From a virus (taxonomy: Duplodnaviria; Caudoviricetes): 64,000 nt of DNA. The stretch is taken from IMG/VR virus record IMGVR_UViG_3300020414_000008, positions 32,001-96,000 of that record; one strand, 5' to 3'. The notes under the pieces were generated by a model, which did not search any database, was not told where the DNA came from, and saw only the letters and a list, made by a program, of their open reading frames with translations. A program made the translations under genes and the position numbers. The first letter of the stretch is position 1. Each line of letters begins with the position of its first letter. This document shows, piece after piece, positions 28,484-45,338 of the stretch.

Positions 28484-28497
28484 ATGAAGGTAAGAAA

Positions 28498-28734
28498 ATG
28501 AAAGAATATTTGTATTTTTCAGCAGCGTGGTGTCAACCATGTAAAACGTTGAGTCCTGTAATGGAACAAGTCGGTAATACGATTCCCGTAAAAAAAATAA
28601 ATGTGGATGAACAATCCGACTTAGCACAGAGATACGGTATAAGGAGTGTTCCAACTGTAGTTTTGTTAGAGAATCAAATCGAAGTAAAAAGAATTATCGG
28701 TGTAAAACCAATGAACGAGTACTTATCGATATAA
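28498..28734 (+). CDS. Thioredoxin
   Basis: WCQPC; IRSVPT; adjacent to the RNR genes. Confidence 0.92.
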   Translation: MKEYLYFSAAWCQPCKTLSPVMEQVGNTIPVKKINVDEQSDLAQRYGIRSVPTVVLLENQIEVKRIIGVKPMNEYLSI

Positions 28735-28747
28735 AATTAAAAAAGTT

Positions 28748-29836
28748 ATGAAACAAACAAAGATTTGTTTGAATGCTATGGTAGCAAACGAATCTAACAC
28801 TATTCTTAGAATGTTAGAGTCGTGTTATCAGTACATTGACTATTGGGTGATTCAAGATAATGGGTCAACTGATGGAACTCAACAAATAATTCGTGATTTT
28901 TTTGAAGAAAAGGGAATTGACGGATTTCTTTATGAAACAGAATGGAAGTTTCCTGGCTACAATAGAGACCATACTTTACAAAAGTGTCTAAGTTCTAATC
29001 ATGGATGTGATTGGATTCTTAGAATGGACGCGGATGAACAATTAAAAGTAGATGATAATTTTGATTGGTCGGTATTCAACGACACTTCTATCGATTCTTT
29101 TAATATCCCCGTAGAAACAACTGATAGTTACTATTATAGAACTTGGTTATGGAACGCAAACAGACCGTGGTATTTCAAACACTCAAAAAGACACGAAACA
29201 ATACATTTACCTGATGTGGATGAAGACTTTGTTAGATTTGATTTAGATAAATCATTTAGACACATCGTAACAAATGACGGACAAACTTGGACTGTAGACA
29301 ATAAGTTTATTACAGACGCACTAACACTTGAGTTAGAAAATGTACCAACTAAAAAAGTATTAGAAGATGACTATCATTTATGGTATATTGGAAAATCATA
29401 TTACGATGGTTATTGGAAAACAGAAGAGTTACCATTTGGTGAACTACATTCATATGAATACGCAAGAAGAGCAATATTTTATTTTGAAATGTATCTAAAA
29501 AACGTTCACGGTGAAAATCCTCATTGGGATGAAATGGGATATTACGCATGTTTATTGTTAGGTAGATTGTATGCATTTTTAGGTGAACCATATGATGGAT
29601 TACAAAAGTGGGAAGAGGCGGAAAAATACTGTCAAGGAAGAAATGAACATTTGATTGATTTAGCATACTATTATAGAGACAATGGATTTTGGGAACAGAT
29701 GTTAGAAGTTTGTACTAAAATTATGAAAAACAAGAATCCGTTTCCTAATTCTACGTTTTTTATAGATAATCAATCATACCCTGATACAGGAACAAGGTGT
29801 AAAGAATTATTAGAAGTTGCAAAAAGAAATGTATAA
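28748..29836 (+). CDS. GT2-family glycosyltransferase with a TPR-like C-terminus
   Basis: DNGSTDGT; MDADE; HE motif; helical Tyr-rich tail. Confidence 0.8.
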   Translation: MKQTKICLNAMVANESNTILRMLESCYQYIDYWVIQDNGSTDGTQQIIRDFFEEKGIDGFLYETEWKFPGYNRDHTLQKCLSSNHGCDWILRMDADEQLKVDDNFDWSVFNDTSIDSFNIPVETTDSYYYRTWLWNANRPWYFKHSKRHETIHLPDVDEDFVRFDLDKSFRHIVTNDGQTWTVDNKFITDALTLELENVPTKKVLEDDYHLWYIGKSYYDGYWKTEELPFGELHSYEYARRAIFYFEMYLKNVHGENPHWDEMGYYACLLLGRLYAFLGEPYDGLQKWEEAEKYCQGRNEHLIDLAYYYRDNGFWEQMLEVCTKIMKNKNPFPNSTFFIDNQSYPDTGTRCKELLEVAKRNV

Positions 29837-30926
29837 ATACGATTATTTAATTGTCGGTTCAGGGTTTTATGGAGCAGTTTGTGCATATGAACTGAAAGAA
29901 GCAGGTAAAAAAGTTTGTGTTATTGAAAAAAGAGACCACATTGGTGGTAACTGTTATACGGAAGAGGTAGATAAAATTCATGTACACAAATATGGACCTC
30001 ATATATTTCATACAAACAGTGAGAAGGTGTGGCATTGGATAAATCAGTTTGTAGACTTTAATCAGTTTCAACTAAATCCAATAGCAAACTATAAAGGTGA
30101 GATATACCCACTACCTTTCAATATGTATACATTTAACAAAATGTGGGGTGTTAGAACACCTGAGGGTGCAAAAGAAAAGATTGAATCACAGAGGTTTAAA
30201 GGTAATCCTACTAACTTAGAAGAACAAGCACAAGCTCTTGTTGGTAAAGATATTTATCAAAAATTAATAAAAGGTTACACTGAAAAACAGTGGATGAAAC
30301 CTTGTATGTTGTTACCAAAATCAATCATCAAAAGATTACCTGTTAGATTCACTTACAATAACAACTATTTTAATGACAAATATCAAGGAATACCAATCGG
30401 TGGATACACTCAGATATTTGAAACGTTGTTAGAAGACATTGAAGTATTTACAGAAACAGATTATTTTGACAAAAAGGACTTTTGGGATGGTTTAGGTGAG
30501 ACAGTAATATACACAGGACCAATTGATAAATACTACGATTACAAATATGGTGATTTGGAATACAAATCTGTACATTGGATGAATAAGATGTATAAATCAA
30601 AGGATAACTATCAAGGATGTGCAGTTATGAACTACACTGATTCAGAAACACCATATACACGAATCATTGAACATAAACACTTTGATAATCAAAATCAAGA
30701 AGGAACTTATGTTAGTTGGGAATACCCACAACCATATGAACGGGGAGTTGAACCATTTTATCCTGTAAATGATAAAGTAAACAACGAAAAGTATAACAAG
30801 TATAAAAAATTGTCACAACAACAAGACAAGGTGATATTTGGTGGTAGATTAGCAGAATATAAGTATTACGATATGCACCAAGTAATCGCAGCAGCATTAA
30901 AGAAAGTAGAAACATTACTATGGTAG
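29829..30926 (+). CDS. glf: UDP-galactopyranose mutase
   Basis: IVGSGFYG; HIGGNCY; HKYGPHIFHT; GYTEKQW; GRLAEYKYYDMH. Confidence 0.95.
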   Translation: MYKYDYLIVGSGFYGAVCAYELKEAGKKVCVIEKRDHIGGNCYTEEVDKIHVHKYGPHIFHTNSEKVWHWINQFVDFNQFQLNPIANYKGEIYPLPFNMYTFNKMWGVRTPEGAKEKIESQRFKGNPTNLEEQAQALVGKDIYQKLIKGYTEKQWMKPCMLLPKSIIKRLPVRFTYNNNYFNDKYQGIPIGGYTQIFETLLEDIEVFTETDYFDKKDFWDGLGETVIYTGPIDKYYDYKYGDLEYKSVHWMNKMYKSKDNYQGCAVMNYTDSETPYTRIIEHKHFDNQNQEGTYVSWEYPQPYERGVEPFYPVNDKVNNEKYNKYKKLSQQQDKVIFGGRLAEYKYYDMHQVIAAALKKVETLLW

Positions 30927-31477
30927 TAATTGATGATTTTATTAAAGACGAAGACCTTTTAAATCGACTCAAAGAGGATAATACTTTTTGGGATGATAAG
31001 GGTTACTATTGGTGGAACGGGTGGTGGAATACACCAACCAACACACTTAAGAAAGAGTTAATACAGTATATTTGGGGTGAAAACTCCCCATACCCATCTG
31101 TAAACGTTTCAGGGTTTGAATATTGGACAGGTGTTTATTCTCAAGACGAGGAACGAGATGAACTACCATTTCATTTTGATAAAGATGAATATATATGGGA
31201 TACTGAAAAAAGAATAGTTAGACCCGTAATAGGAACAGTTTTCTATCCGTGGGAAAACGATATCGATGGTGGATATCTTGAAATATATCCTGACGGAATG
31301 GAAGGTGAACCTGAAAGATTAGAACCCAAATACAATAGATTAGTTATCTTTCCTGCAGGTCACCATCCACATAGAGTTACTAAAGTTACTCGTGGGACAC
31401 GAAGAGCCATCGCAATAAACCTATGGGACGTAGAACCATCAGGTGTAAAAAATGGTGAAATGTATTTGGAAAATTAA
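30920..31477 (+). CDS. 2OG-Fe(II) oxygenase
   Basis: HFDKD; GGYLEI; NRLVIF; HRVT..TRRAIAIN. Confidence 0.85.
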   Translation: MVVIDDFIKDEDLLNRLKEDNTFWDDKGYYWWNGWWNTPTNTLKKELIQYIWGENSPYPSVNVSGFEYWTGVYSQDEERDELPFHFDKDEYIWDTEKRIVRPVIGTVFYPWENDIDGGYLEIYPDGMEGEPERLEPKYNRLVIFPAGHHPHRVTKVTRGTRRAIAINLWDVEPSGVKNGEMYLEN

Positions 31478-31496
31478 TAAAAATTTTGTATATTAG
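31465..31496 (+). promoter_or_regulatory. Host-type promoter for the PolB operon
   Basis: TTTG(31465)-N20-TATATTAG(31489). Confidence 0.7.
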
Positions 31497-31510
31497 TGAA
31501 AAGATTTAAA

Positions 31511-31714
31511 ATGAGGTTACGAGGTGAATCACATCCACAACATAAATTAACAGAAGGACAAGTGAAGTCTATCAGAAAATTATGGTCTGTGGGTCATCGT
31601 AATATAAGAGTATTAGCAAGAAATAACGGAGTATCTCCTGCGAATATTAGAAAAATAGTAAAAGGGGAAACTTGGACTCACCTACTTTTTGGTGAATTTA
31701 ACGATTATCAATAA
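31511..31714 (+). CDS. Stand-alone HTH protein resembling the C-terminal DNA-binding domain of HNH endonucleases
   Basis: GESHPQHKLTEGQV..IR...LARNNGVS...I..IVKGETW. Confidence 0.7.
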   Translation: MRLRGESHPQHKLTEGQVKSIRKLWSVGHRNIRVLARNNGVSPANIRKIVKGETWTHLLFGEFNDYQ

Positions 31715-31717
31715 TAT

Positions 31718-34234
31718 ATGTATCAAAACGTATACTACGAAAAAGAAAAGAATATCATACACTGTTGGGATGATGAAAAAGGTTACTATACATCAAAGTA
31801 TCGTAGATACGCATATGTAAGAGACGGTAATGGAGCACATCAATCAATTCACGGTGAACGTTTAAAGAAACTTACTTGGTGGAAAGCAGAAGATGATTTA
31901 CAATTATATGAATCAGATGTAAACGAAGTTACAAGATTCTTAATTGACAACTATGGTGACTCAGATGAATCATCAGTTGGACATACAGTTCTTACTTTTG
32001 ATATAGAGGTAGAAATGCTTAGTGGTCTTCCTGACATTGATAAAGCAGATAACGAAATTACTGCGATTGCAGGACATGATAGTGTTACAAATGATTATTT
32101 TGTTTACGTTGTTAATAAAGGTGAGAAGATTAATAAAACAATCAAAGGTGCACAGGTAGAATCATTTGACTCAGAAGATGAACTACTTACAGCATTCTTA
32201 AACAAGTGGCAAGAAATAAATCCATCAATTGTAACAGGATGGAATATTGATTATTTTGATGTCACATACTTGTACAACAGATTAAAGAATAGATTTGGTG
32301 AAAGATTAGCAAACAAACTATCACCGATTGGTAAAGTTCATTGGAACAAATATCGTAAAAGATACATTATCGCAGGTGTATCAGCATTAGATTATCTTGC
32401 GTTATACAAATGTTACACATACACTGAACTTCCAAACTATAGATTAGACACGGTAGCAACAACTGAATTGGGTAGAGGAAAGATTGAGTATGAAGGAAAC
32501 CTTGACCAACTATTCAGAGATGATATAGAGAAGTTTATTGAGTATAACTTAGTTGATGTAGAGTTGGTTGTTGATATGGATAAGAAACTTCAGTTTATTG
32601 ATTTAGCAAGAGCAATATGTCATACAGGTCATGTGTTCTATGAAGATTACTTATTTTCATCAAAATGGTTAGAGGGTGCAATGTTGACATTCCTTAGAAG
32701 GAGTGGTAGAGTCGCACCAAATAAAGCAAGACGAGTTCCAAGAAACGAAGATGGTTCAGATGGTGAATCTAAGTTTACAGGAGCGTATGTAAAAGAACCA
32801 AAGCCAGGATTGTATAAATGGGTTTATGATTTAGATTTGACTTCACTATATCCATCAATCATTATGAGTATCAATATTTCACCTGAGACAAAGATTGGTA
32901 AGTTGAAAGATTATTCTGCTGAAGACCATATGAAAGGTAGATTAGAAACTTATACTATTATGGACGTTGATGGAAATGAGTTTCCTACTTTACCAAAAGA
33001 TAAGTTCAAAGCATTTATAGATAAAAACAAATATTCAGTCGCATCAAACGGAGTCCTTTATAGAACAGATAAAGTTGGTATTATTCCTGAAATATTAAAT
33101 GTTTGGTTTAACAAAAGAGTTGAATACAAAGATTTGATGAAAAAGTATGGTAAAGAAGGTAATGACGAACAATACAAGTTTTACGGTAAACGACAGTTAG
33201 TACAAAAGATTATGTTAAACTCTTTGTATGGAGTTTTAGGATTACCATCATTCAGATTCTATGATATTGACAATGCAGAAGCAACTACGATTACAGGTCA
33301 AACTGTAATTAAAACAACTGAGTTGATTGCAAATCAATACTACTCAAAAGTGATAGGAAAAGAGGCAGACTATAACGTGTATACTGATACTGATTCTGTA
33401 TTCTATCAAGCAGCACCGTTGGTAAAAGCACGTAATCCTGAACTCAATGAAGAGTCGGATGAAGAAATGATTCCTGCGATTCTATCCGCAGCAAAAGAGG
33501 TAGAACAACACATTAATGGAATGTACGATGTTATGGCAAAAAAGTTATTTAACATTGATACACATAGATTTGATATCAAACAAGAAACAATCGCAAAGGG
33601 TGGTTTTTGGGTATCAAAGAAACGATACGCTCAATGGATTATCAACGACAATACTGTTGATTGTGATAAATTGGACGTAAAAGGATTGGATGTAAAACGT
33701 AGTTCGTTTCCAACTTACTTTAAAGAAGTTATGAAAACAGTTCTTTTAGATATTCTAAAATCAACTGATAAAACAGAGATAGACCAAAAAATATTAGATT
33801 ACAAAGATGGTATGGTCGATAGGAACTTTATAGACATTGCAAAAAATACGTCAGTAAAAGAACTGTCAAAATATATGACAAAGAGTCAGGTGTTGGGTGA
33901 GTTCAAAAAAGGAACTCCTGCTCACGTTAAATCTGCATTGACATATAATCAATTACTTGCGTTCTATAAAGTACCTTACAAATATGAACCAATGAGAGAC
34001 GGTGACAAGGTTAAGTGGGTTTATTTAAAAAACAATCCACTTGGATTAGATTCAACCGCGTTAAAAGGTCATAACGACCCACCACAGATTCTAAAGTTTG
34101 TTGAACAATATATTGACTATGATAAAATATGGGAAAAGGAGTTAGAAAACAAACTTGGAGATTTCTATGAAGCGATGGATTGGGAAAAACCTAATTCTAA
34201 TTTACAGAAAGCATCACAATTTTTTGGATTTTAA
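31718..34234 (+). CDS. Family B DNA polymerase (gp43-like)
   Basis: FDIE exo I; GWNIDYFD; DLTSLYPSII; KIMLNSLYG; YTDTDS; KKRY. Confidence 0.97.
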   Translation: MYQNVYYEKEKNIIHCWDDEKGYYTSKYRRYAYVRDGNGAHQSIHGERLKKLTWWKAEDDLQLYESDVNEVTRFLIDNYGDSDESSVGHTVLTFDIEVEMLSGLPDIDKADNEITAIAGHDSVTNDYFVYVVNKGEKINKTIKGAQVESFDSEDELLTAFLNKWQEINPSIVTGWNIDYFDVTYLYNRLKNRFGERLANKLSPIGKVHWNKYRKRYIIAGVSALDYLALYKCYTYTELPNYRLDTVATTELGRGKIEYEGNLDQLFRDDIEKFIEYNLVDVELVVDMDKKLQFIDLARAICHTGHVFYEDYLFSSKWLEGAMLTFLRRSGRVAPNKARRVPRNEDGSDGESKFTGAYVKEPKPGLYKWVYDLDLTSLYPSIIMSINISPETKIGKLKDYSAEDHMKGRLETYTIMDVDGNEFPTLPKDKFKAFIDKNKYSVASNGVLYRTDKVGIIPEILNVWFNKRVEYKDLMKKYGKEGNDEQYKFYGKRQLVQKIMLNSLYGVLGLPSFRFYDIDNAEATTITGQTVIKTTELIANQYYSKVIGKEADYNVYTDTDSVFYQAAPLVKARNPELNEESDEEMIPAILSAAKEVEQHINGMYDVMAKKLFNIDTHRFDIKQETIAKGGFWVSKKRYAQWIINDNTVDCDKLDVKGLDVKRSSFPTYFKEVMKTVLLDILKSTDKTEIDQKILDYKDGMVDRNFIDIAKNTSVKELSKYMTKSQVLGEFKKGTPAHVKSALTYNQLLAFYKVPYKYEPMRDGDKVKWVYLKNNPLGLDSTALKGHNDPPQILKFVEQYIDYDKIWEKELENKLGDFYEAMDWEKPNSNLQKASQFFGF

Positions 34235-34258
34235 ATATTAATTAATTAGGAATATATT

Positions 34259-34882
34259 ATGTTAGATGTATCAACACATAAAAATGTAGAAAATGTTATC
34301 AGATATTTTCTTTTATACTTACCACCAAGAGGAGCAGAATCCATATTAGACGTGGGTGGTGGGTGTACAGCACCTTACAAAGGTGTTCTACAAACAAGAT
34401 GTGAGGAATACAGAAATCTTGATATAAGAAGTGGCCCAGGCGTTGATTATGTTCAAGATATTGTAGAGGGAACTGACTTTGAAGACAAACAGTGGGATTG
34501 GACATGGTGTTCAGAAACACTTGAACACATTCCACAAAAGTATATGAAGACATTTGTTGATGAAGTTTGTCGTATAAGTAAGAACGTAGTTTGGACGTTC
34601 CCGTTACCACACTCTGAGCCGTTTCCTTTAGACCCTGGCCATAGTGAAGTAATTGTAGATATGGAATCATATTCAAAAGACTTTCATGTATTTGATAAAA
34701 CTACCAAATCAGGTAGGGGTATTTGGATTTTCGCAAGAAAAGACAGAAAGGTAGAAGTAACCAATAAAGGTATCATTCAAGAAGGATACTCCGCTGATAA
34801 CTTATCGTTTGATGTGGTTAACAATAAAAAACGTCTAAAAGCAAATCCTGTCACTGTAAATAAATTTTTTAGTTTTGATTAG
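34259..34882 (+). CDS. Class I SAM-dependent methyltransferase inside the replisome operon
   Basis: ILDVGGG; DWTWCSETLEHI; C-terminal NKFFSFD. Confidence 0.75.
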   Translation: MLDVSTHKNVENVIRYFLLYLPPRGAESILDVGGGCTAPYKGVLQTRCEEYRNLDIRSGPGVDYVQDIVEGTDFEDKQWDWTWCSETLEHIPQKYMKTFVDEVCRISKNVVWTFPLPHSEPFPLDPGHSEVIVDMESYSKDFHVFDKTTKSGRGIWIFARKDRKVEVTNKGIIQEGYSADNLSFDVVNNKKRLKANPVTVNKFFSFD

Positions 34883-34910
34883 GAATTGTCAATTAAATTT
34901 TGTATATTAG
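34879..34910 (+). promoter_or_regulatory. Host-type promoter
   Basis: TTAG(34879)-N20-TATATTAG(34903). Confidence 0.55.
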
Positions 34911-34930
34911 TAACAAACTTAAAATAAATT

Positions 34931-35626
34931 ATGAAGAAAAACTCGTTTGAAGGTTTCATTTCCCGATATAATCTCGGTGGTGAAGTCGAATCGGTTAAGA
35001 TTAACTCAACCGATGAAGGTATGTCTGTAAGTTTTATTTCAGACGACAAGACACTCTTAGGGAGTGTTCAAAGTGAAAACAAAGAATTCCCAAATGGAGA
35101 GTTCGGTATTTACACAACATCACAACTTAAAGGGTTGTTAGGTGTTTTAGATTCTTCTATTGATATTACTGAAGGTGAAGCATCTTTAGTATTCTCAGAC
35201 AAGAAGACATCAGTTAATTATATGTTAGCAGATTTATCTGTTATTCCTGTAGTTCCTGATTTAAAACAACTACCTGACTTTAATGGTGAAATTACATTAG
35301 ATGATGAATTTATTTCAACATTCGTAAAGTCAAAAGGAGCGTTAAGTGAATCAGATACATTTACTTTCTCTTGTAAGGGTAACAAAGGTTCTGTTGTGTT
35401 AGGTTATCAAAAAATTAATTCTAATAGAATTTCTATGAATGTAAACTGTAAATGTGATGGTGACATCGAACCAATCTCATTCTCAGCAAAATACTTAAAA
35501 GAAATTCTTAATGCAAACAAAGGTGCAAAATCATCTTCTCTAAAAGTTTCAAGTCAAGGACTTGCATTCGCAACATTTGAAAAAGATGGTTTCACTTCTA
35601 ACTACTACTTAGTAGAAATAAAGTAA
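34931..35626 (+). CDS. Sliding clamp (gp45/PCNA-like)
   Basis: 231 aa; FGIY; FSAKYL; ends NYYLVEIK; lies between the polymerase and clamp loader. Confidence 0.8.
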   Translation: MKKNSFEGFISRYNLGGEVESVKINSTDEGMSVSFISDDKTLLGSVQSENKEFPNGEFGIYTTSQLKGLLGVLDSSIDITEGEASLVFSDKKTSVNYMLADLSVIPVVPDLKQLPDFNGEITLDDEFISTFVKSKGALSESDTFTFSCKGNKGSVVLGYQKINSNRISMNVNCKCDGDIEPISFSAKYLKEILNANKGAKSSSLKVSSQGLAFATFEKDGFTSNYYLVEIK

Positions 35627-35635
35627 GGAGCAAAT

Positions 35636-37126
35636 ATGACTAAAGATTACAACCATCCACTGTACGGTAGACGAGTTCTACACATCATGTCACCTGTTAG
35701 GTGGAGTGGTCCTAAATTTCAACATCACGGTGATTCTAACTATAAAGTTATGGTTAAGACTATCAAGTTTTTACCAATGTGTCACCATACAATATTGGTC
35801 CCTACCAATAACACGATTCCTGATTTAGGTCCAAACGTAACATTAGTACCATTTGATTATACTCAATCTGTTTTATCAAATAGAGCATACTTTAACGGTA
35901 AACTCTTAAACAAACTTACAGATTGGAGAGGTCAAGATTTTGACTTTATATTTAATCACCAACCTGAACTTTTATATAATGTTGTAAATTCAATCATGTC
36001 TTCAAGATATGGTCTTACAGTAGAATGTTTCAATTTCTTCCATTGGGTTGACTGTACAAAGAGTAGAGTTACAGATGGATACCCTGAAGGATTCTATAGA
36101 CAACTTGAAGCAATTAATTGGTCTTACAAATCATATTTCCACTGTCCTGTATCAAAAGATTATATGAAATCTAATTGGGACAAAAAGGACTATATAGTTC
36201 AAGGTATCAATGACGAAGTCATGGATGAAAAGATTAACTACTTTCCATTAGGAGTAGGACAGTTCCCTGATTCGGAACCATTCCCTAATCCTGCACGAGG
36301 TAAAAAGATATTGTTATTCAATCATAGATGGAACAATTCAACAGGTATCAATAAACTTATTGAATATACTGAAGACCTTGATAGGGATGAGTGGTTAGTT
36401 TGGGTTACTGATGAAAATGCAAAAAAACCTCAAGCAGGTAAACCTGCACCAAAATGGATGTATGTTAAGAATTTACCAAGTGGTGGAGCATATCGTAATT
36501 TGATTGAACAGTCTCATGCCACTTTGTGTTTTGTTGACAACTACATGACTTGGAACTTATCAGTACAAGACGCAGTTAGGTTGAAGAAACCAAGTTTAGC
36601 GTTCAAACACCCAACATATGAATATGTCTTGGGTAAAGATTATCCATTATACTTCTCAGATAAAGAGGAGTTCTTAGATGTAATAAATAAAATTCCTGAA
36701 GGTAAGAAATTTGATTGGGAATTACCACCACATGATGAAGACTTTAAAAATAATCTTGTTGGTGATTTAATACATTGTTTAGAAAACAGTAAGAAGAAAC
36801 ATACATCCAAAACCAAATACGGTGTGGAGTGGTTATATCATATCTTACAGGGTAATGGATATAAAAAGAACATCTTGTATAATAGTCACCCGTCATTACA
36901 TAAAAGTAATGCGTGGGAAGGTATTAGACAGTGGTGTTTAGAAAGAGGTGTAAAAGATACACCGAATGAAGTTTATACTAAACTTTGGATTCCTGAAGAA
37001 AACATCGATGATATTAAGAAAATTATTGATGAAGCAGGAAACGTAGATTACAAAGGTGACCCATTAGATGAGTCTAAGAGAGACCCTAAATGGTCACAAA
37101 ACTTTACATCAAATAAATTCTTTTAA
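35636..37126 (+). CDS. GT-B glycosyltransferase, candidate DNA glycosyltransferase
   Basis: LLFNHRW; TWNLSVQDA; YPLYF; sits between clamp and clamp loader; C-terminal SNKFF. Confidence 0.6.
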   Translation: MTKDYNHPLYGRRVLHIMSPVRWSGPKFQHHGDSNYKVMVKTIKFLPMCHHTILVPTNNTIPDLGPNVTLVPFDYTQSVLSNRAYFNGKLLNKLTDWRGQDFDFIFNHQPELLYNVVNSIMSSRYGLTVECFNFFHWVDCTKSRVTDGYPEGFYRQLEAINWSYKSYFHCPVSKDYMKSNWDKKDYIVQGINDEVMDEKINYFPLGVGQFPDSEPFPNPARGKKILLFNHRWNNSTGINKLIEYTEDLDRDEWLVWVTDENAKKPQAGKPAPKWMYVKNLPSGGAYRNLIEQSHATLCFVDNYMTWNLSVQDAVRLKKPSLAFKHPTYEYVLGKDYPLYFSDKEEFLDVINKIPEGKKFDWELPPHDEDFKNNLVGDLIHCLENSKKKHTSKTKYGVEWLYHILQGNGYKKNILYNSHPSLHKSNAWEGIRQWCLERGVKDTPNEVYTKLWIPEENIDDIKKIIDEAGNVDYKGDPLDESKRDPKWSQNFTSNKFF

Positions 37127-37127
37127 T

Positions 37128-38048
37128 ATGAGTAATTCACTATGGGTTGAAAAATACAGACCCGATACATTAGAGGGATATGTTGGTAATGAACATATCT
37201 TAGAAAAAGTAAAAATATACATTGAGAATGAGGATGTACCACACTTGTTACTTTATGGAGTAGCAGGTACAGGTAAGACTACCCTCGCAAAGATAATCAC
37301 TAATCAGATTGATTGTGATGTTATGTACATAAACGCCTCTGATGAAAACTCTGTTGACGCAGTTCGTGATAAGATTCGTGGATTCGCATCATCAATGGGT
37401 TTCAGAAAGTGGAAGGTTATCATATTAGATGAAGCAGATTATTTGACACCAAACGCACAAGCAGCACTTAGAAACTTAATGGAAACTTTTTCAAAGTCTA
37501 CAAGATTTATTTTAACTTGTAACTATGTAGAAAAAGTTATTGACCCGATTCAATCTCGTTGTCAGACATTCGCAATAACACCACCTTCAAAGAAGGAAGT
37601 AGCGAAAAGATTGTTTGATATATTAAACGAGGAAGAGGTTAAGTTTCAAAAAGAAGACCTTGCAGTATTAGTGAATGGTGGGTATCCTGACATTCGTAGA
37701 GTTCTAAATGCAGCACAGAGACAAGTTGTCAAAGGTGAATTGAAAATAGATACAACATCTACAGTTCAAGCAAACTATGTTGACAATGTAATTGAAGTGA
37801 TGAAATCAGGTGGTGAGATGAAAAAACAATTCAATCAAATCAGACAGATTATTGCTGATTCAAAAGTGAAAGATTTTCAACCACTATACAGAGCACTATA
37901 TGATGAAGTAGATGAATACGCATCGGGTAAAGTTGGACAGACTATTTTAAACATCGCAGATGGTCAGTACAAAGATTCAATGGTTGTTGATAAAGAAATC
38001 AACATTATGGCGATGATTTTAAATATTTTAGTAACAATAGGAAAGTAG
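37128..38048 (+). CDS. Clamp loader AAA+ subunit (gp44/RFC-like)
   Basis: WVEKYRP; GVAGTGKTT; NASDE; ILDEAD; FILTCN; IQSRC. Confidence 0.95.
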   Translation: MSNSLWVEKYRPDTLEGYVGNEHILEKVKIYIENEDVPHLLLYGVAGTGKTTLAKIITNQIDCDVMYINASDENSVDAVRDKIRGFASSMGFRKWKVIILDEADYLTPNAQAALRNLMETFSKSTRFILTCNYVEKVIDPIQSRCQTFAITPPSKKEVAKRLFDILNEEEVKFQKEDLAVLVNGGYPDIRRVLNAAQRQVVKGELKIDTTSTVQANYVDNVIEVMKSGGEMKKQFNQIRQIIADSKVKDFQPLYRALYDEVDEYASGKVGQTILNIADGQYKDSMVVDKEINIMAMILNILVTIGK

Positions 38049-38050
38049 TT

Positions 38051-38329
38051 ATGGCAAAAAAAGGAAAAGTTGTAGACTTAGGGGGACAGCAGAATAAACA
38101 ACAGGTAGGTCTAAAATTAGACCCAAGAAAGTTACCTACTGTAGATTGTCCCGAATGTGGTGGTATCTTCTTTGACGAAGTAACAATGTATAAAGAAGTA
38201 CCAGCAGTACAATCACCAAACGGTGTAGCATCGATGTTACCAATACCCGTTGTATTATGTAACAACTGTGGTACAGTTCATCCAAAATTTACACCAAAAG
38301 AACTGATTAATGGTGAAAAAGAAGACTAA
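38051..38329 (+). CDS. Zinc-ribbon protein
   Basis: CPEC...CNNC. Confidence 0.7.
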   Translation: MAKKGKVVDLGGQQNKQQVGLKLDPRKLPTVDCPECGGIFFDEVTMYKEVPAVQSPNGVASMLPIPVVLCNNCGTVHPKFTPKELINGEKED

Positions 38330-38747
38330 AACAATATTTGAACATATTTCGGGAATCAAAGAGAAAAAGGTTCCTTGGAATACTCTATCCGATATGGATA
38401 AGAAAACATTCTCACCATTTATAGTAAATAGATGGTTGTCAATGAATCTTAATCTTATTGAGTTGGTAAACGAGTTACAAAAACATACCATAGGTCAACT
38501 CAAACCCCGAGATGTGTACAAATTATATTTTGACGTTCTTCCACAGAAAAAGACATGGGATAAGTACATAAAAGGTAAAAAAGAAAGTAAGTACAATGAA
38601 AATGTCTTAAAGTACTTGTCAAAATACTATGAAGTATCTCAGAGAGAAGTCATAGGATATCTTGACATACTAACAAAAGATGAAATTACCGAAATAATAA
38701 AAAAATACGGTATAGAAGATAAAGAAATAAAGAAATGGCTGAAGTAA
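38310..38747 (+). CDS. Clamp loader small subunit (gp62-like)
   Basis: FSPFIVNRWLSM; YLSKYYEVS..E; position. Confidence 0.75.
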   Translation: MVKKKTKTIFEHISGIKEKKVPWNTLSDMDKKTFSPFIVNRWLSMNLNLIELVNELQKHTIGQLKPRDVYKLYFDVLPQKKTWDKYIKGKKESKYNENVLKYLSKYYEVSQREVIGYLDILTKDEITEIIKKYGIEDKEIKKWLK

Positions 38748-39145
38748 TAAAAGAAAGAAAAAACAAAGTTAAGTGGAATGGTGAAAAACAAGTGAAGAGA
38801 AATGTAGAGGAATCCGCAATAGAATATTGTGAAAGACTATATCCAAACACGACAACTGAGTTTAAAAAGATTCAAGAAGAAATGTATGAAACATTCTGTA
38901 AAAAACAAAGAAATTACGGACCCGATAACATTTCAGTTGGTTCTAACTTAGAAACTGATGATGAAATAAAGATATCACTAACAGGTTTATGGTTCAGAAT
39001 GAATGATAAAATCCAAAGACTAAAACAATTAGTAGTTTTAGGTCAACCTGATGAAGTTGGTGAAAACATCCAAGATACATACGAAGATATGAGTGTTTAT
39101 GGAGTTATAGCACAGATAGTCCAAAGAAAGAAGTGGGCTAAGTAA
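38735..39145 (+). CDS. Nucleotide-modification-associated domain protein (DUF1599/Nmad1-like, all-alpha NTP-PPase-like)
   Basis: KKQRNYG; RMNDKIQRL; E.IQDTYEDMSVYGVIA. Confidence 0.75.
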   Translation: MAEVIKERKNKVKWNGEKQVKRNVEESAIEYCERLYPNTTTEFKKIQEEMYETFCKKQRNYGPDNISVGSNLETDDEIKISLTGLWFRMNDKIQRLKQLVVLGQPDEVGENIQDTYEDMSVYGVIAQIVQRKKWAK

Positions 39146-39148
39146 AAT

Positions 39149-39204
39149 TTAACAATTATTTAACATAAAAGATTTGGTAATTCCAAGTCTTTTTCTTATC
39201 TTTA
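39149..39204 (+). promoter_or_regulatory. Host-type promoter with two TTAACA boxes
   Basis: TTAACA at 39149 and 39160; TTTG(39173)-N20-TATCTTTA(39197). Confidence 0.7.
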
Positions 39205-39209
39205 TGTAG

Positions 39210-40151
39210 ATGAAAAAATCAATGGTATCCAATATATTCAATTTTCCCGTACACAAAGAAGGGAAAGATGATAAGAAGGTTTCCTATTCACAGTATACAA
39301 TGTGGGCAAACTGTCCTAAACAGTGGAAACTAACCTATATGGATGGTCACAAAGACTTCGACCCATCCATACACTTATTATTCGGTACCGCAATGCATGA
39401 GACTATACAATCTTGGTTACAAGTTATGTATAATGACTCTGCAACAAAAGCAAATGAAATGGACCTTAATGGACTCTTGTTAGAAGAAATGACTAAAGAG
39501 TACAAAAAGACCATGGCAATATACGGAATTAAGTTTACCAATCGTAGTGAAATGAATGAGTTCTACGATGATGGTATACAAATACTCGATTTCTTGAAAA
39601 AGAATCGGTCTGCATACTTTTCAACTCGTAATATGAAACTTGTTGGTGTAGAATTACCTATTTATTATCCCGTATCAGATGATAGTCAAATCATGATGAA
39701 AGGTTTCCTTGACTTGGTATTTGAAGACAGTGATGGAAATATTGAAATATGGGATATCAAAACATCAACAAAAGGTTGGAACAAGTGGCAGAAAGCGGAT
39801 AAAACAAAAACCGCACAATTAGTTTTATACAAAAAGTTTTTCTCAGAACAATATGGTTATCCATTAGATAGAATACAAGTAAGGTATTTTATTGTAAAAA
39901 GAAAGTTGTGGGAAGAGGCAATGTTTGCACAAAAGAGGGTACAAGAGTTTGTACCACCTCACGGTAAACCTACCTTAAATAAAATAGTAAAGAATTTTAA
40001 CCAATTTATTGAAAGTAGTTTTAACGATGATGGAACATACAATACAGTTGGTGAGTTCCCTGCATTAGCAGGTAAGAACAACAAGAACTGTAGATGGTGT
40101 CCTTTCAAAGATAGTGAATTGTGTAACAAAAAGGAACGTATAAAATCTTAA
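39210..40151 (+). CDS. PD-(D/E)xK exonuclease, RecB/Cas4-like
   Basis: SYSQ...CP; GTAMH; GFLDL; WDIKT; QLVLY; CRWCPF...C. Confidence 0.88.
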   Translation: MKKSMVSNIFNFPVHKEGKDDKKVSYSQYTMWANCPKQWKLTYMDGHKDFDPSIHLLFGTAMHETIQSWLQVMYNDSATKANEMDLNGLLLEEMTKEYKKTMAIYGIKFTNRSEMNEFYDDGIQILDFLKKNRSAYFSTRNMKLVGVELPIYYPVSDDSQIMMKGFLDLVFEDSDGNIEIWDIKTSTKGWNKWQKADKTKTAQLVLYKKFFSEQYGYPLDRIQVRYFIVKRKLWEEAMFAQKRVQEFVPPHGKPTLNKIVKNFNQFIESSFNDDGTYNTVGEFPALAGKNNKNCRWCPFKDSELCNKKERIKS

Positions 40152-40152
40152 T

Positions 40153-40683
40153 ATGAGAACTTTATTTATATGGGTTTCTTTACTTTTAGTTAGTTCAAGT
40201 AAAGTAGAAAATCCAAGGGTAGAACCAATTACGGTTCTTGAACCTAAACCAATAAAAGAACTAACGGTGGAAACAACACCAATGATTCTAAAAATACCTG
40301 ATAGAGATATTTCAGACTTAGTAGGAGCGATGATACAGGTAGAATCACAAGGAGACCCAAGTGCATTTGCTAAAGGAGAGAATGCAGCAGGTATCTTACA
40401 AATAAGACCAATAATGGTCAATGAAGTAAATAGACTACTTCATAAATTTGATTCTGAAAAATTCTATACATTAGATGACAGATGGGATGAGAAGAAGTCT
40501 ATAGAAATGTTTTATATAATTTACAATTATTACCACAAAGATAGTTCATATGAAGAAATTGCAAGGTGTTGGAATGGTGGTCCGAAAGGATTACAGAAAA
40601 AACAAACTAAAAGGTATTGGAAAAAGGTACAAAAAGAATTGGTCAAGTATGAGAGTAGCGTTGATAGGTCACGAGACGTATGA
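40153..40683 (+). CDS. Exported lysozyme-fold muramidase/lytic transglycosylase
   Basis: Hydrophobic N-terminus; IQVES.G; AAGILQI; ARCWNGGP. Confidence 0.75.
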   Translation: MRTLFIWVSLLLVSSSKVENPRVEPITVLEPKPIKELTVETTPMILKIPDRDISDLVGAMIQVESQGDPSAFAKGENAAGILQIRPIMVNEVNRLLHKFDSEKFYTLDDRWDEKKSIEMFYIIYNYYHKDSSYEEIARCWNGGPKGLQKKQTKRYWKKVQKELVKYESSVDRSRDV

Positions 40684-41044
40684 AAATAGAGGAGAAATAA
40701 AAGAGTTAATCTTTAACTTAAAGAAAAAGTTTGGTGACGACCTAATCATAGTTACACGAGGTAAAAAAAATGGTATTGAAAAGTGGGTTAGAAAGTACTC
40801 GTTAGAAATGAGTGTAAAGTATATCGAATATAATCCTGCACATACATCTGTAACGTTGTATAGTGGAATGGAAGATGACTATTACGATAAACCATATCAC
40901 CCAACACAACCACTTCACCAATATGATTGTATCGTACATAACTCAGATAAGATAGTTTATTTTGGGGAGATACAAAGGAATGAATTTAATCATTTCAACA
41001 GATTGTTAAATAGATGGAAAAAGAAAGCAAGTTTCGTACAATGA
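40649..41044 (+). CDS. SLOG/YspA-like (DUF2493-like) protein
   Basis: MRVALIG...IVTRG..NGIEKW...IVHNSDKIVYF. Confidence 0.55.
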   Translation: MRVALIGHETYENRGEIKELIFNLKKKFGDDLIIVTRGKKNGIEKWVRKYSLEMSVKYIEYNPAHTSVTLYSGMEDDYYDKPYHPTQPLHQYDCIVHNSDKIVYFGEIQRNEFNHFNRLLNRWKKKASFVQ

Positions 41045-41385
41045 ATGAAATAGAATATAGACCTTGGGGTAGATACGAGGTATTGTTAGATGACCCCACT
41101 ACAAAAGTAAAAAGAATTACAGTAGAACCTCACAGAAAGTTGTCGTACCAATATCACCACAAAAGACAGGAATGTTGGACCGTGATAAAGGGTGAGTTGA
41201 CAATTGTTTTAGATGACGAAAAAGTATTCAGAAAGTATGGTGAGACCATCAGAATACCATTAGGAGCAAAACACAGAGCATGGAATGAGACAGATGAACC
41301 CGTTGAGTTTATAGAAGTTCAAACAGGTACATATTTTGGTGAAGATGATATTGTTAGAATTTCTGATGAATATAATAGGATTTAA
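41041..41385 (+). CDS. Cupin, mannose-6-phosphate isomerase type II C-terminal domain
   Basis: RPWG; LSYQYH..RQECW; HRAWN; IEVQTGTYFGEDDIVR. Confidence 0.9.
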   Translation: MNEIEYRPWGRYEVLLDDPTTKVKRITVEPHRKLSYQYHHKRQECWTVIKGELTIVLDDEKVFRKYGETIRIPLGAKHRAWNETDEPVEFIEVQTGTYFGEDDIVRISDEYNRI

Positions 41386-41400
41386 TTAATTTTTTTTGTA

Positions 41401-41408
41401 TATTTATA
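41401..41408 (+). promoter_or_regulatory. Putative late promoter heading the glycosylation island
   Basis: TATTTATA, intergenic. Confidence 0.55.
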
Positions 41409-41434
41409 GTTAAATAAAAAAGAAGAAGTTACAC

Positions 41435-44654: not shown

Positions 44655-44663
44655 AATTAAATT

Positions 44664-45287: not shown

Positions 45288-45338
45288 TCGCGTTTTTGGA
45301 AACGATATGTGTGTCAAAAGAAAATTTAACAATTTCCT

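What the first reader, a model, noticed from the sequence alone, without database searches (positions are those of the whole stretch)
31718..39145. Candidate clamp-tethered DNA hypermodification cassette inside the replisome operon
Seen: the order is PolB, methyltransferase, sliding clamp, GT-B glycosyltransferase, clamp loader, Zn ribbon, loader small subunit, Nmad1/DUF1599. Three proteins end in similar tails: PolB ...KASQFFGF, methyltransferase ...TVNKFFSFD, glycosyltransferase ...TSNKFF. Known: gp45/PCNA partners dock through short C-terminal peptides with aromatic residues; T-even DNA glucosyltransferases are GT-B; Nmad1 domains occur in base-modification loci. Inference: both enzymes ride the clamp to glycosylate and then methylate nascent DNA. 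The methyltransferase looks like a small-molecule type (no PC or DPPY motif), so it may methylate the sugar, giving an unusual methyl-glycosyl base. This fits the GpC footprint.
Basis: partly seen in the sequence, partly recalled or inferred. Interest (0 to 1): 0.82.

Follow-up and report, generated by a model that had tools for sequence, protein, structure and literature searches.

The report
Clamp-tailed sugar and methyl transferases
In an uncultured marine T4-like phage, a sugar-adding enzyme and a sugar-methylating type of enzyme sit inside the DNA-replication operon and end in the same short peptide as the phage's DNA polymerase, so they probably ride the sliding clamp and modify newly made DNA, though what they modify is not shown.

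Summary
Gene order and the three tails (PolB ..SQFFGF, MT ..KFFSFD, GT ..NKFF) are as described.

**What supports clamp docking**
- 102 of 113 full-length GT homologues (down to about 40% identity) end in an [FW][FW] pair, against 12 of 227 ORFs of this genome.
- The tail tends to resemble the PolB tail of the same genome.
- In related phage contigs, N6/N4 DNA methyltransferase relatives and Mom relatives carry tails of the same kind.
- A clamp-trimer/tail co-fold gave only weak support.

**What the enzymes are**
- The GT has no Pfam hit but folds as a GT4-like GT-B enzyme.
- The MT is a HEN1/UbiG-like O-methyltransferase that keeps the ExxEH...H metal site. Its nearest other relatives are GT4::MT fusions, so it looks like a sugar methylase.
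- The MT gene is a clean 647-bp presence/absence variant in 96%-identical phages.

**What is not supported**
- The genome has no hydroxymethylase, TET/JBP or DNA methyltransferase.
- GATC is absent from the genome, which argues against blanket hypermodification.
- The GpC footprint is real but does not track the GT or the MT.
- The Zn ribbon and DUF1599 are core operon genes, not part of the module.

T4 alpha-GT binding gp45 is a known precedent, and this scan has noted clamp-tailed DNA modifiers on other genomes. Verdict: a new variant of a known kind, with the acceptor unknown.

The parts
31718..34234 (+). T4-type family B DNA polymerase (gp43-like), 838 aa. Its C-terminal peptide ..LQKASQFFGF (nt 34214-34231 = SQFFGF) is the reference clamp-docking tail.
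   Evidence: PF00136 and PF03104, phrog_262 E 4.6e-190. 49% identical to PolB of Microcystis phage Mel-JY01, whose tail is ..SKFFNFK.
34259..34882 (+). 207-aa class I SAM methyltransferase, HEN1/UbiG-like. Invariant E86, E89, H90 (nt 34514-34528) and H128 (nt 34640-34642). A flexible tail ends ..NKFFSFD (nt 34862-34879 = KFFSFD).
   Evidence: Pfam Methyltransf_11/25, weak. AF2 model pLDDT 87.8 with residues 199-206 disordered. Foldseek best matches are small-molecule MTs, with the human HEN1 MT domain 5wy0 at rank 4. UbiG aligns CSETLEHIP to CMEMLEHVP. The HEN1 metal ligands are ExxEH...H (PMC10781085). The tetrad is kept in 65/74 relatives.
34244..34890 (+). 647-bp segment holding the whole MT gene. 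It is absent from 92-96%-identical relatives, where PolB runs straight into the clamp gene. This is a presence/absence cassette.
   Evidence: blastn of window 31000-40000 against L015 and L024. Alignments break at 34243 and resume at 34891, with 9 nt shared at the joint. The gene tables of L015 and L024 lack the MT.
34931..35626 (+). gp45-like sliding clamp, 231 aa, pI 4.8. It is the proposed docking platform.
   Evidence: phrog_223 E 9e-12. 2518 relatives at E<=1e-5 in public metagenomes. Alignment A3.
35636..37126 (+). 496-aa divergent GT-B (GT4-like) glycosyltransferase. It has an extra helical C-terminal domain (about 390-470), a conserved ..DPxF/W.. element and a disordered tail ending ..TSNKFF (nt 37112-37123 = NKFF).
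   Evidence: No Pfam, PHROG or NCBIfam hit. AF2 pLDDT 92, residues 491-496 below 50. Foldseek and VIA-align place it in GT-B. At least 159 homologue clusters. Tail statistics.
37128..38048 (+). gp44-like clamp-loader large subunit. The probable start, ATG 37128, lies one base after the GT stop codon. Core operon gene.
   Evidence: phrog_168 E 1e-84, with the match starting at residue 18 of the longer ORF. Translation.
38051..38329 (+). 92-aa Zn-ribbon protein. Core operon gene, not part of the modification module.
   Evidence: Weak Zn-ribbon Pfam hits. Small Zn-ribbon ORFs stand at the same position in L001, L009 and Mel-JY01.
38310..38747 (+). gp62-like clamp-loader small subunit.
   Evidence: PF16790 at 30.1 bits, phrog_225 E 2.4e-19.
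38735..39145 (+). DUF1599 (Nmad1)-like protein, 136 aa. Core operon gene that is also present without GT and MT.
   Evidence: PF07659 at 23.5 bits, under the 25-bit cut-off; phrog_1485 E 3.8e-13. 52% identical to the Mel-JY01 ORF at the same position.
39167..39193 (+). Terminator-like hairpin followed by a T run. Probable end of the replisome transcription unit.
   Evidence: It is the only + strand terminator-like site in 28000-42000.
28748..31477 (+). Upstream neighbours of PolB: a GT2-like protein (28748-29836), UDP-galactopyranose mutase Glf (29829-30926) and a small 2OG-Fe(II) oxygenase (30920-31477). Glf is a possible sugar-donor supply. The link to the GT is not shown.
   Evidence: TIGR00031 UDP-GALP_mutase at 401 bits against a cut-off of 304. 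phrog_13126 and phrog_61. Sugar-activating genes also stand beside the GT in relatives: NTP_transferase in L006 and PfkB in L011 and 4kbGYg8Q.

Best explanation
Two accessory enzymes are inserted into the conserved replisome operon PolB-clamp-gp44-Zn ribbon-gp62-DUF1599. One is a divergent GT4-like GT-B glycosyltransferase. The other is a small HEN1/UbiG-like, probably metal-dependent, O-methyltransferase.

Each carries a disordered C-terminal extension that ends in the same K/Q-F-F peptide as the phage's own DNA polymerase. The most likely mechanism has four steps.

1. The peptide docks each enzyme on the gp45-like sliding clamp, as gp43 does in T4/RB69. This is inferred from conservation, from likeness to PolB's tail and from a weak co-fold.
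2. The clamp-held GT transfers a sugar from an NDP-sugar to newly replicated phage DNA, as T4 alpha-GT does while bound to gp45. This is inferred by analogy and from the company the tail keeps.
3. Where the strain-variable MT is present, it O-methylates a hydroxyl of a vicinal diol on that sugar. This is inferred from its HEN1-like metal site, its fusion to GT4 domains in relatives and its adjacency to the GT.
4. The acceptor atom on DNA is unknown. No hydroxymethylase, TET/JBP or DNA methyltransferase is encoded. The modification is therefore either partial or site-limited on an unrecognised acceptor, or uses new chemistry.

My odds for each step:

| Step | Odds |
|---|---|
| Clamp docking | about 0.8 |
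| Active glycosyltransferase | about 0.8 |
| DNA is the acceptor | about 0.55 |
| MT methylates the sugar | about 0.35 |
For: **Tails**
- The three tails read as described. They lie in disordered ends of confident models.
- Strict [FW][FW] in the last 8 residues occurs in 102/113 GT homologues and 12/33 MT homologues, against 12/227 ORFs of the genome.

**Likeness of PolB and GT tails within one genome**

| PolB tail | GT tail |
|---|---|
| KKFAEFFDF | KKFSEFFT |
| NENAWF | DDSWF |
| NKFFEL | NKFF, and paralogue NKFFDLE |
| AEKFFSF | DNKFF |

**Company the tail keeps**
- N6_N4 DNA methyltransferase relatives: 13 of 14 distinct tails are aromatic (SKWW, EKFL, LEDFYG..).
- Mom relatives: 36 of 45 distinct tails are aromatic (TLExFF). 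The L010 Mom tail STLDKFYN resembles the PolB tail STLEDFFG of the same contig.

**Co-fold**
- For the clamp trimer with GT residues 455-496 the verdict was weak support. The score was 0.49 and the best of 3 controls 0.00.
- That mark was reached by 58 of 80 solved complexes and 2 of 110 mismatched pairs. At 0.60 or under it was reached by only 7 of the 80, and by both mismatches that passed.
- The runs agree in at least 8% of contacts, and the partner's pLDDT is at least 38.

**Synteny**
- The GT stands next to PolB or the clamp in most lineages sampled.
- Genes are tightly packed, with one terminator-like site after DUF1599.

**GT**
- AF2 pLDDT 92. GT-B fold with Z 22.3, rmsd 3.7 A, 345 aligned to a GT4-type enzyme.
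- The phage HY126 glycosyltransferase 9iqz scores Z 16.6. HY126 DNA carries arabinosylated 5-hydroxycytosine (PMC13326640).
- T4 alpha-GT 1y6f scores Z 14.7.

**MT**
- Invariant E86, E89 and H90 lie in a short helix after strand 4, and H128 after strand 5. These are the same places as the HEN1 metal ligands (PMC10781085).
- The HEN1 MT domain ranks 4th in Foldseek.
- GT4::MT fusions are its nearest other relatives.

**Precedent**
- T4 alpha-GT co-purifies with gp45 (PMC13216743, citing Sommer 2004).
Against: - No enzyme that could make an acceptor base was found. The one ThyA homologue passes the thymidylate synthase equivalog TIGR03284 and keeps the uracil-specifying Asn in LPFNI. It is 42-49% identical to T4 and T5-like thymidylate synthases.
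- The genome has no ThyX, TET/JBP, C5, N6/N4 or Dam methyltransferase, no DNMK and no TGT.
- Five other GT-bearing contigs, two of them 78% and 91% complete, have no ThyA-family or TET/JBP gene.
- GATC occurs 0 times against 671 expected, and CYRG 209 times against 1222 expected. Such avoidance is not expected if the DNA were fully hypermodified.
- The GT's closest folds are GT4 enzymes for small molecules, lipids and glycans. Its closest viral matches by length and shape are Arthrobacter phage glycosyltransferases of unknown target.
- The genome holds a large sugar island at 41-56 kb, so other acceptors are on hand. Other first-stage notes also describe collagen-like fibre genes with hydroxylases and glycosyltransferases.
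- In some lineages (tails ..NKWW and ..NQWW) the GT is not beside replication genes.
- The aromatic pair is not strictly matched to PolB's. Examples are ERFF with a WF tail on the GT and a WW tail on the MTase.
- MT tails are less conserved than GT tails (12/33 strict).
- Binding to the clamp has not been measured.
Confidence: 0.5

Rival explanations
1. The tails do dock on the clamp, but the acceptor is not a DNA base. It could be something else at the primer-template junction. One candidate is the 2'-OH of the 3'-terminal ribonucleotide of an RNA primer, which is the kind of end HEN1 methylates. Another is a replisome or DNA-bound protein, modified by O-glycosylation as OGT-type GT-B enzymes do.
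For: The MT keeps the HEN1 metal tetrad, which in HEN1 binds the 2' and 3' hydroxyls of a terminal ribose. Clamps are loaded at primer 3' ends (established knowledge of clamp loaders). No base-activating enzyme is encoded. Site avoidance argues against blanket base modification.
Against: MT relatives are fused to GT4 glycosyltransferases, and the MT neighbours the GT, which points to a sugar rather than RNA. The MT has no RNA-binding domain, being 207 aa in all. The other tail-bearing enzymes in related phages belong to families that modify DNA bases. No benefit of a methylated primer end is known.
Confidence: 0.15
2. The GT and MT belong to the phage's general glycan machinery, which would glycosylate virion proteins, collagen-like fibres or host surface molecules. 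Their place in the replisome operon would then be incidental. The aromatic C-terminal dipeptide would serve another purpose, such as membrane or partner binding or stability.
For: The nearest folds are GT4 enzymes, and about 500-aa Arthrobacter phage glycosyltransferases match with TM about 0.6. MT relatives are fused to GT4 domains that resemble the window's other GT4 at 41435-42859, not P0004. A large sugar island lies at 41-56 kb, and a GT_PLOD gene stands next to the GT in L006. In the WW lineages the GT is not beside replication genes.
Against: The tail is nearly universal in the family and resembles PolB's tail in the same genome, including extended motifs. The GT4::MT fusions lack the extension and tail, so the tail looks like a specific addition to the replisome-linked forms. 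The GT stands next to PolB or the clamp in most lineages sampled. DNA methyltransferase and Mom relatives have tails of the same kind. The co-fold exceeds its controls, weakly.
Confidence: 0.2
3. The shared tails are a chance resemblance with no common function.
For: Short motif. 21% of the genome's ORFs have a loose aromatic-hydrophobic pair in the last 8 residues. Clustering within this one genome is only P about 0.0065.
Against: 102/113 GT homologues against 12/227 ORFs for the strict motif. Fisher P 2e-39 for the loose motif. The tail is conserved down to about 40% identity and across changes of gene order.
Confidence: 0.03

Closest known systems
T4 alpha-glucosyltransferase bound to the gp45 sliding clamp (Sommer et al. 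2004; re-tested in PMC13216743)
   Same: A GT-B fold enzyme of a T4-like phage that is associated with the phage sliding clamp. It is proposed to act on DNA during replication. The fold match to 1y6f is Z 14.7, rmsd 4.3 A, 310 aligned.
   Different: There is no sequence membership in PF11440, since Pfam gave no hit. T4 supplies 5-hydroxymethylcytosine through gp42, whereas this genome has no such route. Here the link to the clamp is an explicit PolB-like C-terminal peptide that is conserved across a large family. The gene also lies inside the replisome operon. The T4 work concluded that clamp binding is not what sets the alpha/beta glucosylation ratio.
C-terminal gp45-binding peptides of T4/RB69 gp43, gp55 and gp33 (own knowledge of the RB69 clamp-peptide structure; not re-checked here)
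   Same: A short hydrophobic or aromatic peptide at the very C-terminus, after a flexible linker, shared by several clients of one clamp.
   Different: The clients here are a glycosyltransferase and an O-methyltransferase. Binding is inferred, not measured, and the co-fold is only weak support.
HEN1 / bacterial Hen1 3'-terminal RNA 2'-O-methyltransferases and UbiG-type O-methyltransferases
   Same: Class I MT fold. CxExxEH in a short helix after strand 4 and a His after strand 5, which match the HEN1 metal ligands.
   Different: Only 207 aa, with no RNA-binding domains. About 19% identity over the structural match. Relatives are fused to GT4 glycosyltransferases. It carries a clamp-type tail. 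It works like these enzymes but is not shown to be a member.
Phage DNA glycosylation pathways with a base-activating partner: TET/JBP or 5mYOX plus GT (PMC13229309), and 5-hydroxycytosine arabinosylation in RB69/HY126 (PMC13326640)
   Same: A phage GT-B acts on DNA after replication. Sugar-activating genes lie beside the GT in relatives. The HY126 glycosyltransferase structure 9iqz is among the better PDB matches.
   Different: No dioxygenase of the TET/JBP family, no thymidylate-synthase-like hydroxylase and no DNA methyltransferase was found here or in five related contigs.
DNMT1-PCNA (eukaryotic maintenance methyltransferase docked on the clamp by a PIP box; own knowledge)
   Same: A DNA-modifying enzyme recruited to the fork by a short clamp-binding peptide.
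   Different: Unrelated proteins. The phage tails are C-terminal, and the substrates differ.

Membership tests
Clients of the T4-type gp45 clamp (C-terminal docking peptide) | Short hydrophobic/aromatic peptide at the extreme C-terminus, after a flexible linker | tested here: met
   GT residues 491-496 and MT residues 199-206 have pLDDT under 50 at the end of confident models. The tails are NKFF and KFFSFD.
Clients of the T4-type gp45 clamp (C-terminal docking peptide) | Peptide resembles that of the phage's own polymerase and is conserved in homologues | tested here: met
   PolB ends SQFFGF. 102/113 GT homologues have the strict motif against 12/227 ORFs, and 12/33 MT homologues do. Tails are paired by lineage, for example KKFAEFFDF with KKFSEFFT and NENAWF with DDSWF.
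Clients of the T4-type gp45 clamp (C-terminal docking peptide) | Physical binding to the clamp | tested here: inconclusive
   Complex prediction gave weak support: score 0.49, best of 3 controls 0.00. The mark was reached by 58 of 80 solved complexes and 2 of 110 mismatches. At 0.60 or under it was reached by only 7 of the 80 and by both mismatches. Contact agreement at least 8%, partner pLDDT at least 38.
GT-B fold glycosyltransferases (GT4-like) | Two Rossmann-like domains with the GT-B topology | tested here: met
   AF2 pLDDT 92. VIA-align Z 22.3 (rmsd 3.7, 345 aligned) to 6kih and Z 20.9 to BshA. Foldseek probability 1.00 to SenB and OtsA.
GT-B fold glycosyltransferases (GT4-like) | Sequence membership in Pfam Glycos_transf_1 / Glyco_transf_4 and the E-x7-E donor motif | tested here: not met
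   No Pfam hit at E<=0.1, and no hit of profile A1 to PDB sequences at E<=1. At the expected place the family has invariant Y303, T305, W306, N307 and D312 instead. That is my reading of alignment A1 and was not checked in 3D.
T4 DNA alpha-/beta-glucosyltransferases (PF11440, PF09198) | Sequence membership | tested here: not met
   No Pfam hit for P0004. Only a fold-level match to T4 AGT 1y6f (Z 14.7).
T4 DNA alpha-/beta-glucosyltransferases (PF11440, PF09198) | Co-occurring 5-hydroxymethylcytosine supply (dCMP hydroxymethylase) | tested here: not met
   There is a single ThyA homologue, of thymidylate-synthase type, with Asn at the base-specifying site. None was found in five related contigs.
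TET/JBP (5mYOX) plus GT hypermodification pathway | A TET/JBP-family dioxygenase, and for cytosine a C5 methyltransferase, in the genome | tested here: not met
   Six-frame searches of the 94%-complete genome with PF12851 and PF00145 found nothing at E<=1. PF12851 is also absent from five related contigs.
HEN1-type metal-dependent O-methyltransferases | Class I MT fold with ExxEH after strand 4 and a His after strand 5 (the metal ligands) | tested here: met
   E86, E89, H90 and H128 are invariant in A2 and placed as in HEN1. Kept in 65/74 relatives. 5wy0 is at Foldseek rank 4. Superposition of the side chains was not checked.
HEN1-type metal-dependent O-methyltransferases | RNA-binding modules and activity on RNA 3' ends | tested here: not met
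   The protein is 207 aa: an MT core, a small beta extension and the tail. No RNA-binding domain was hit. Activity is not testable here.
Nmad1 / DUF1599 as a marker of a base-modification locus | Membership in PF07659 and linkage to the modification enzymes | tested here: inconclusive
   PF07659 scores 23.5 bits, under the cut-off of 25. A 52%-identical orthologue sits at the same operon position in Mel-JY01, which lacks the GT and MT.

The most novel reading that the evidence does not exclude
The clamp-held GT glycosylates phage DNA at the fork without any of the known activated bases. It would act either directly on a canonical base or on a base made by an unrecognised enzyme, probably at a limited set of sites. 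The HEN1-like MT would then O-methylate the sugar, giving a methyl-glycosyl DNA base not described so far. More broadly, a PolB-like C-terminal peptide would be a general device by which this abundant group of marine T4-like phages hooks DNA-modifying enzymes (GT, O-MT, N6/N4 methyltransferase, Mom) to the replication clamp.
Probability: 0.2. Interest if true: 0.85.

Novelty: new variant of a known kind. Interest (0 to 1): 0.62.

Why it matters
If the tails bind the clamp, DNA modification in a very abundant group of uncultured marine myophages is physically coupled to replication. The clamp family alone has 2518 relatives in public metagenomes. The device would be a simple, portable peptide.

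This gives a sequence rule, a PolB-like C-terminal tail, for spotting DNA-modifying enzymes that have no recognisable family. It also points to a GT-plus-O-methyltransferase pair whose product is unknown, because none of the known routes to an acceptor base is present.

The pair is directly testable with recombinant clamp, loader, GT and MT. The strain-variable MT cassette suggests an arms race with host defences that read the sugar.

Tried and rejected
**GT family assignment**
- Pfam, PHROGs and NCBIfam on the GT gave nothing.
- tblastn of the GT against 50,697 cultured phage records gave no match.
- The GT profile against PDB sequences gave nothing.
- The protein atlas returned only unnamed viral clusters and GT1-type clusters.

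**MT as a DNA C5 methyltransferase, with C84 standing in for the PC motif**
- Rejected. UbiG and the GT4::MT fusions have the same C/S-x-E-x-x-E-H context. All fold matches are small-molecule or RNA-end methyltransferases.

**A hidden acceptor pathway**
- Searched without result for ThyX, TET/JBP, C5, N6/N4 and Dam methyltransferases, DNMK and TGT.
- tblastn with relatives' N6/N4 methyltransferase, Dam, C5 methyltransferase, QueC, DNMK, MazG, GT_PLOD and NTP-transferase against the genome matched none of them.

**Linking the GpC/CYRG footprint to the MT or GT**
- Rejected. The MT-less close relatives L015 and L024 keep it: 9 CYRG against 158 expected, and all 9 are GpC-flanked.
- The MT-bearing L020 and L080 do not show it. 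Lineage B, with an 82%-identical GT, avoids CYRG without the GpC rescue.

**Strict co-variation of the aromatic pair**
- Only partly true. ERFF polymerases go with WF glycosyltransferases and WW methyltransferases.
- PolB of the WW-tail GT lineages could not be found on the available fragments.

**Other checks that led nowhere**
- The T4 late-promoter word TATAAATA is not enriched.
- Sigma-70-like sites are below shuffle expectation.
- Other tail-bearing small ORFs of the genome (116, 65, 198 and 93 aa) have no useful PHROG match. No gp33 or gp55 control could be named.
- The DUF1599 literature search gave nothing useful.

Full report
**Where the window lies.** The window is bases 32001-96000 of a single 180,769-bp viral contig, estimated 94% complete. 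Nearly all genes are on the + strand and G+C is about 34%. The genome encodes UvsX, a gp32-like SSB, DnaB, RNR, a T4-type PolB, gp45, gp44 and gp62. The nearest cultured phage is Microcystis phage Mel-JY01, with PolB 49% identical. The clamp alone has 2518 relatives in public metagenomes, many from Tara samples and on contigs of up to about 177 kb. This is therefore an abundant, uncultured marine T4-like lineage.

**The observation.**
- The ORFs are at the stated coordinates and the translations end as quoted: PolB ..KASQFFGF, MT ..TVNKFFSFD, GT ..TSNKFF.
- Family searches confirm PolB, clamp, gp44 and gp62. The MT is supported only weakly and DUF1599 falls just under the Pfam cut-off.
- gp44 most likely starts at 37128, one base after the GT stop.
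- Intergenic gaps are 1-48 nt. The only + strand terminator-like hairpin between 28 and 42 kb is at 39167-39193, right after DUF1599. This looks like one transcription unit.
- Within this genome, 6 of 227 ORFs have FF in the last five residues. Three of them lie in four consecutive genes (P about 0.0065).

**The glycosyltransferase.**
- P0004 has no Pfam, PHROG or NCBIfam hit and no match in cultured phages. It has at least 159 homologue clusters in metagenomes.
- An AlphaFold2 model built on 49 homologues is confident (pLDDT 92, pTM 0.91). Only residues 491-496 are disordered.
- It is a GT-B fold. The best VIA-align match is Z 22.3 (rmsd 3.7 A, 345 aligned) to a GT4-type sucrose-phosphate synthase, followed by BshA, PimA and PglA.
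- The phage HY126 glycosyltransferase scores Z 16.6 and T4 alpha-GT Z 14.7. HY126 DNA carries arabinosylated 5-hydroxycytosine (PMC13326640).
- In BFVD the best full-length matches are about 500-aa Arthrobacter phage glycosyltransferases of unknown target.
- The fold therefore confirms 'GT-B' but does not say what the acceptor is. The N-terminal (acceptor) domain holds many invariant residues, which suggests one defined acceptor.

**The methyltransferase.**
- P0002's model (pLDDT 87.8) is a class I MT with a small beta extension and a disordered end.
- Its fold matches are small-molecule methyltransferases and the HEN1 MT domain, with 5wy0 at rank 4. UbiG aligns at CSETLEHIP/CMEMLEHVP.
- E86, E89 and H90 lie in a short helix after strand 4, and H128 lies after strand 5. 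All are invariant. They sit where plant and human HEN1 place the four metal ligands, which hold the 2' and 3' hydroxyls of the terminal ribose (PMC10781085).
- A profile search of 1.84 billion representatives found 1159 relatives. Beyond the orthologues, the nearest are 510-545-aa proteins with an N-terminal GT4 glycosyltransferase and a C-terminal MT domain. Some carry inteins. 65 of 74 family members keep ExxEH...H.
- These fusions stop right after the MT core and have no tail.
It rests on active-site likeness, the domain fusions and gene adjacency, not on an assay.

**The tails.**
- Strict [FW][FW] in the last 8 residues occurs in 102 of 113 full-length GT homologues and 12 of 33 MT homologues, against 12 of 227 ORFs of this genome. 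With the looser motif the counts are 105/113, 21/33 and 48/227.
- I read 79 further loci from IMG/VR plus loci from other metagenomes. There the GT tail tends to resemble the PolB tail of the same genome.

| PolB tail | GT tail |
|---|---|
| SQFFGF | NKFF |
| AEKFFSF | DNKFF |
| NKFFEL | NKFF and NKFFDLE |
| KKFAEFFDF | KKFSEFFT |
| NENAWF / SENSWF | DDSWF / EEDSWF |

- The match is not strict. ERFF polymerases go with ..HxWF glycosyltransferases and ..SKWW methyltransferases.
- Two enzyme families that act on DNA carry tails of the same kind in related contigs. An N6/N4 methyltransferase has 13 of 14 distinct tails aromatic. Mom relatives have 36 of 45, with consensus TLExFF, next to a PolB ending STLEDFFG.
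- A co-fold of the clamp trimer with GT residues 455-496 gave weak support. The score was 0.49 and the best of three controls 0.00.
- That mark was reached by 58 of 80 solved complexes and 2 of 110 mismatches, but at 0.60 or under by only 7 of the 80 and by both mismatches. Contact agreement was at least 8% and partner pLDDT at least 38.

**What belongs to the module.**
- Mel-JY01 has PolB-clamp-gp44-small ORF-gp62-DUF1599 without MT or GT. Its DUF1599 protein is 52% identical to the window's. The Zn ribbon and DUF1599 are therefore core operon genes.
- The GT moves about but stays beside PolB or the clamp in most lineages. Some genomes have two paralogues (L006, L014, L020).
- MT and GT are adjacent in L009 and in contig 4kbGYg8Q.
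- The MT gene is a clean 647-bp presence/absence difference (window 34244-34890) against relatives that are 92-96% identical in DNA. It is an optional add-on to the GT.
- Sugar-activating genes stand beside the GT in several lineages: Glf here, NTP_transferase in L006, and PfkB in L011 and 4kbGYg8Q.

**Is DNA the acceptor?**
- In favour: the clamp tail itself, the DNA-modifying company it keeps, the operon position, and the T4 precedent. T4 alpha-GT, but not beta-GT, co-purifies with gp45 (PMC13216743).
- Against: no way to make an acceptor base is visible. The one ThyA homologue is of thymidylate-synthase type. ThyX, TET/JBP, C5, N6/N4 and Dam methyltransferases, DNMK and TGT were not found. 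Five other GT-bearing contigs have neither ThyA-family nor TET/JBP genes.
- Also against: the genome has 0 GATC against 671 expected, and only 209 CYRG against 1222 expected. GATC is near-absent in most related lineages too. This is hard to reconcile with a blanket hypermodification.
- If DNA is modified, the modification is partial or site-limited, or it does not block the enzymes that select against those sites.

**The GpC footprint.**
- It is real. 84% of surviving CYRG sites are GCYRG or CYRGC, against 16-22% for control tetramers. The GpC odds ratio is 0.62.
- It does not track the enzymes. It is kept in MT-less close relatives and is absent in MT-bearing L020/L080. In a lineage with an 82%-identical GT, CYRG is avoided without the GpC rescue.
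- I therefore do not count it as support.

**Verdict.**
- The best reading is a replisome-tethered GT-B plus an optional HEN1-like sugar O-methyltransferase. It most likely acts on nascent DNA, with the acceptor unknown.
- Clamp-associated DNA glycosylation is known from T4, and this scan has already noted clamp-tailed DNA modifiers on other genomes. Those are AI notes and not independent evidence. This is therefore a new variant of a known kind.
- What is new here is the pairing with a diol O-methyltransferase, the lack of any known base-activating partner, and the breadth of the tail rule.

Noticed in passing
whole genome G000 (window included): Extreme word avoidance: GATC 0 against 671 expected, CTAG 17/365, CCGG 13/90, CTGG 76/367, CCAG 103/401. 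84% of the surviving CYRG sites are flanked as GCYRG or CYRGC, against 16-22% for control tetramers. The GpC odds ratio is 0.62. No DNA methyltransferase gene was found that could explain a GpC-linked protection.
   Followed up: partly
window 41014-56676: Large sugar island: mannose-6-P isomerase-type cupin, two GT4, two GT2, an HMGL-like::cytidylyltransferase fusion, UDP-glucose dehydrogenase, two NAD epimerase/dehydratases, a 2OG-Fe(II) oxygenase and an MptE-like protein. The target glycan is unknown.
   Followed up: partly
window 28748-31477: A GT2-like protein, a full-length UDP-galactopyranose mutase (TIGR00031, 401 bits) and a small 2OG-Fe(II) oxygenase lie directly upstream of PolB. UDP-galactofuranose could therefore be made early, together with the replisome.
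   Followed up: partly
G000:C1:116763-117875 (L004 178-1290), just upstream of the ThyA homologue: Two small ORFs (155 and 200 aa) have D...E-x-K-like motifs suggestive of PD-(D/E)XK nucleases. The second ends ..YEKFWK, a tail of the clamp type. If it is a phage nuclease aimed at host DNA, that could bear on the site avoidance. There is no family hit.
   Followed up: partly
L010 2754-3587 and 80 related IMG/VR loci (L129-L208): Mom-family proteins of marine T4-like phages end in a conserved (S/T)LExFF-type tail like their polymerase (STLEDFFG in L010). N6/N4 DNA methyltransferase relatives (L094-L128) end in SKWW, EKFL or LEDFYG-type tails.
   Followed up: yes
L073 7451-8266 and L054 7457-8230: In lineages where the GT (tail ..NQWW or ..NKWW) is not beside replication genes, the next gene encodes a 257-271-aa protein ending ..DLFDELFGDK(K). 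This is another T4-like clamp-type tail on an unidentified protein.
   Followed up: no
L009 10831-13232 and 15093-17451; L010 6712-10004; proteins P0330, P0334: Inteins or split genes interrupt PolB and gp44 in relatives. Inteins also interrupt GT4::MT fusion proteins related to the MT.
   Followed up: no
L016 / L042 against the window: Mosaicism: the GT is 97% identical to the window's, but the adjacent PolB is only 63% identical and there is no MT. This indicates recombination inside the replisome operon.
   Followed up: no
window 21317-22078: The gp32-like SSB ends in an acidic-aromatic tail ..EAFDDLFND. The RNR small subunit (25691-26686) ends ..EDWDDIF, the usual kind of tail for binding the large subunit. 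These are reminders that C-terminal aromatic tails serve several partners.
   Followed up: no
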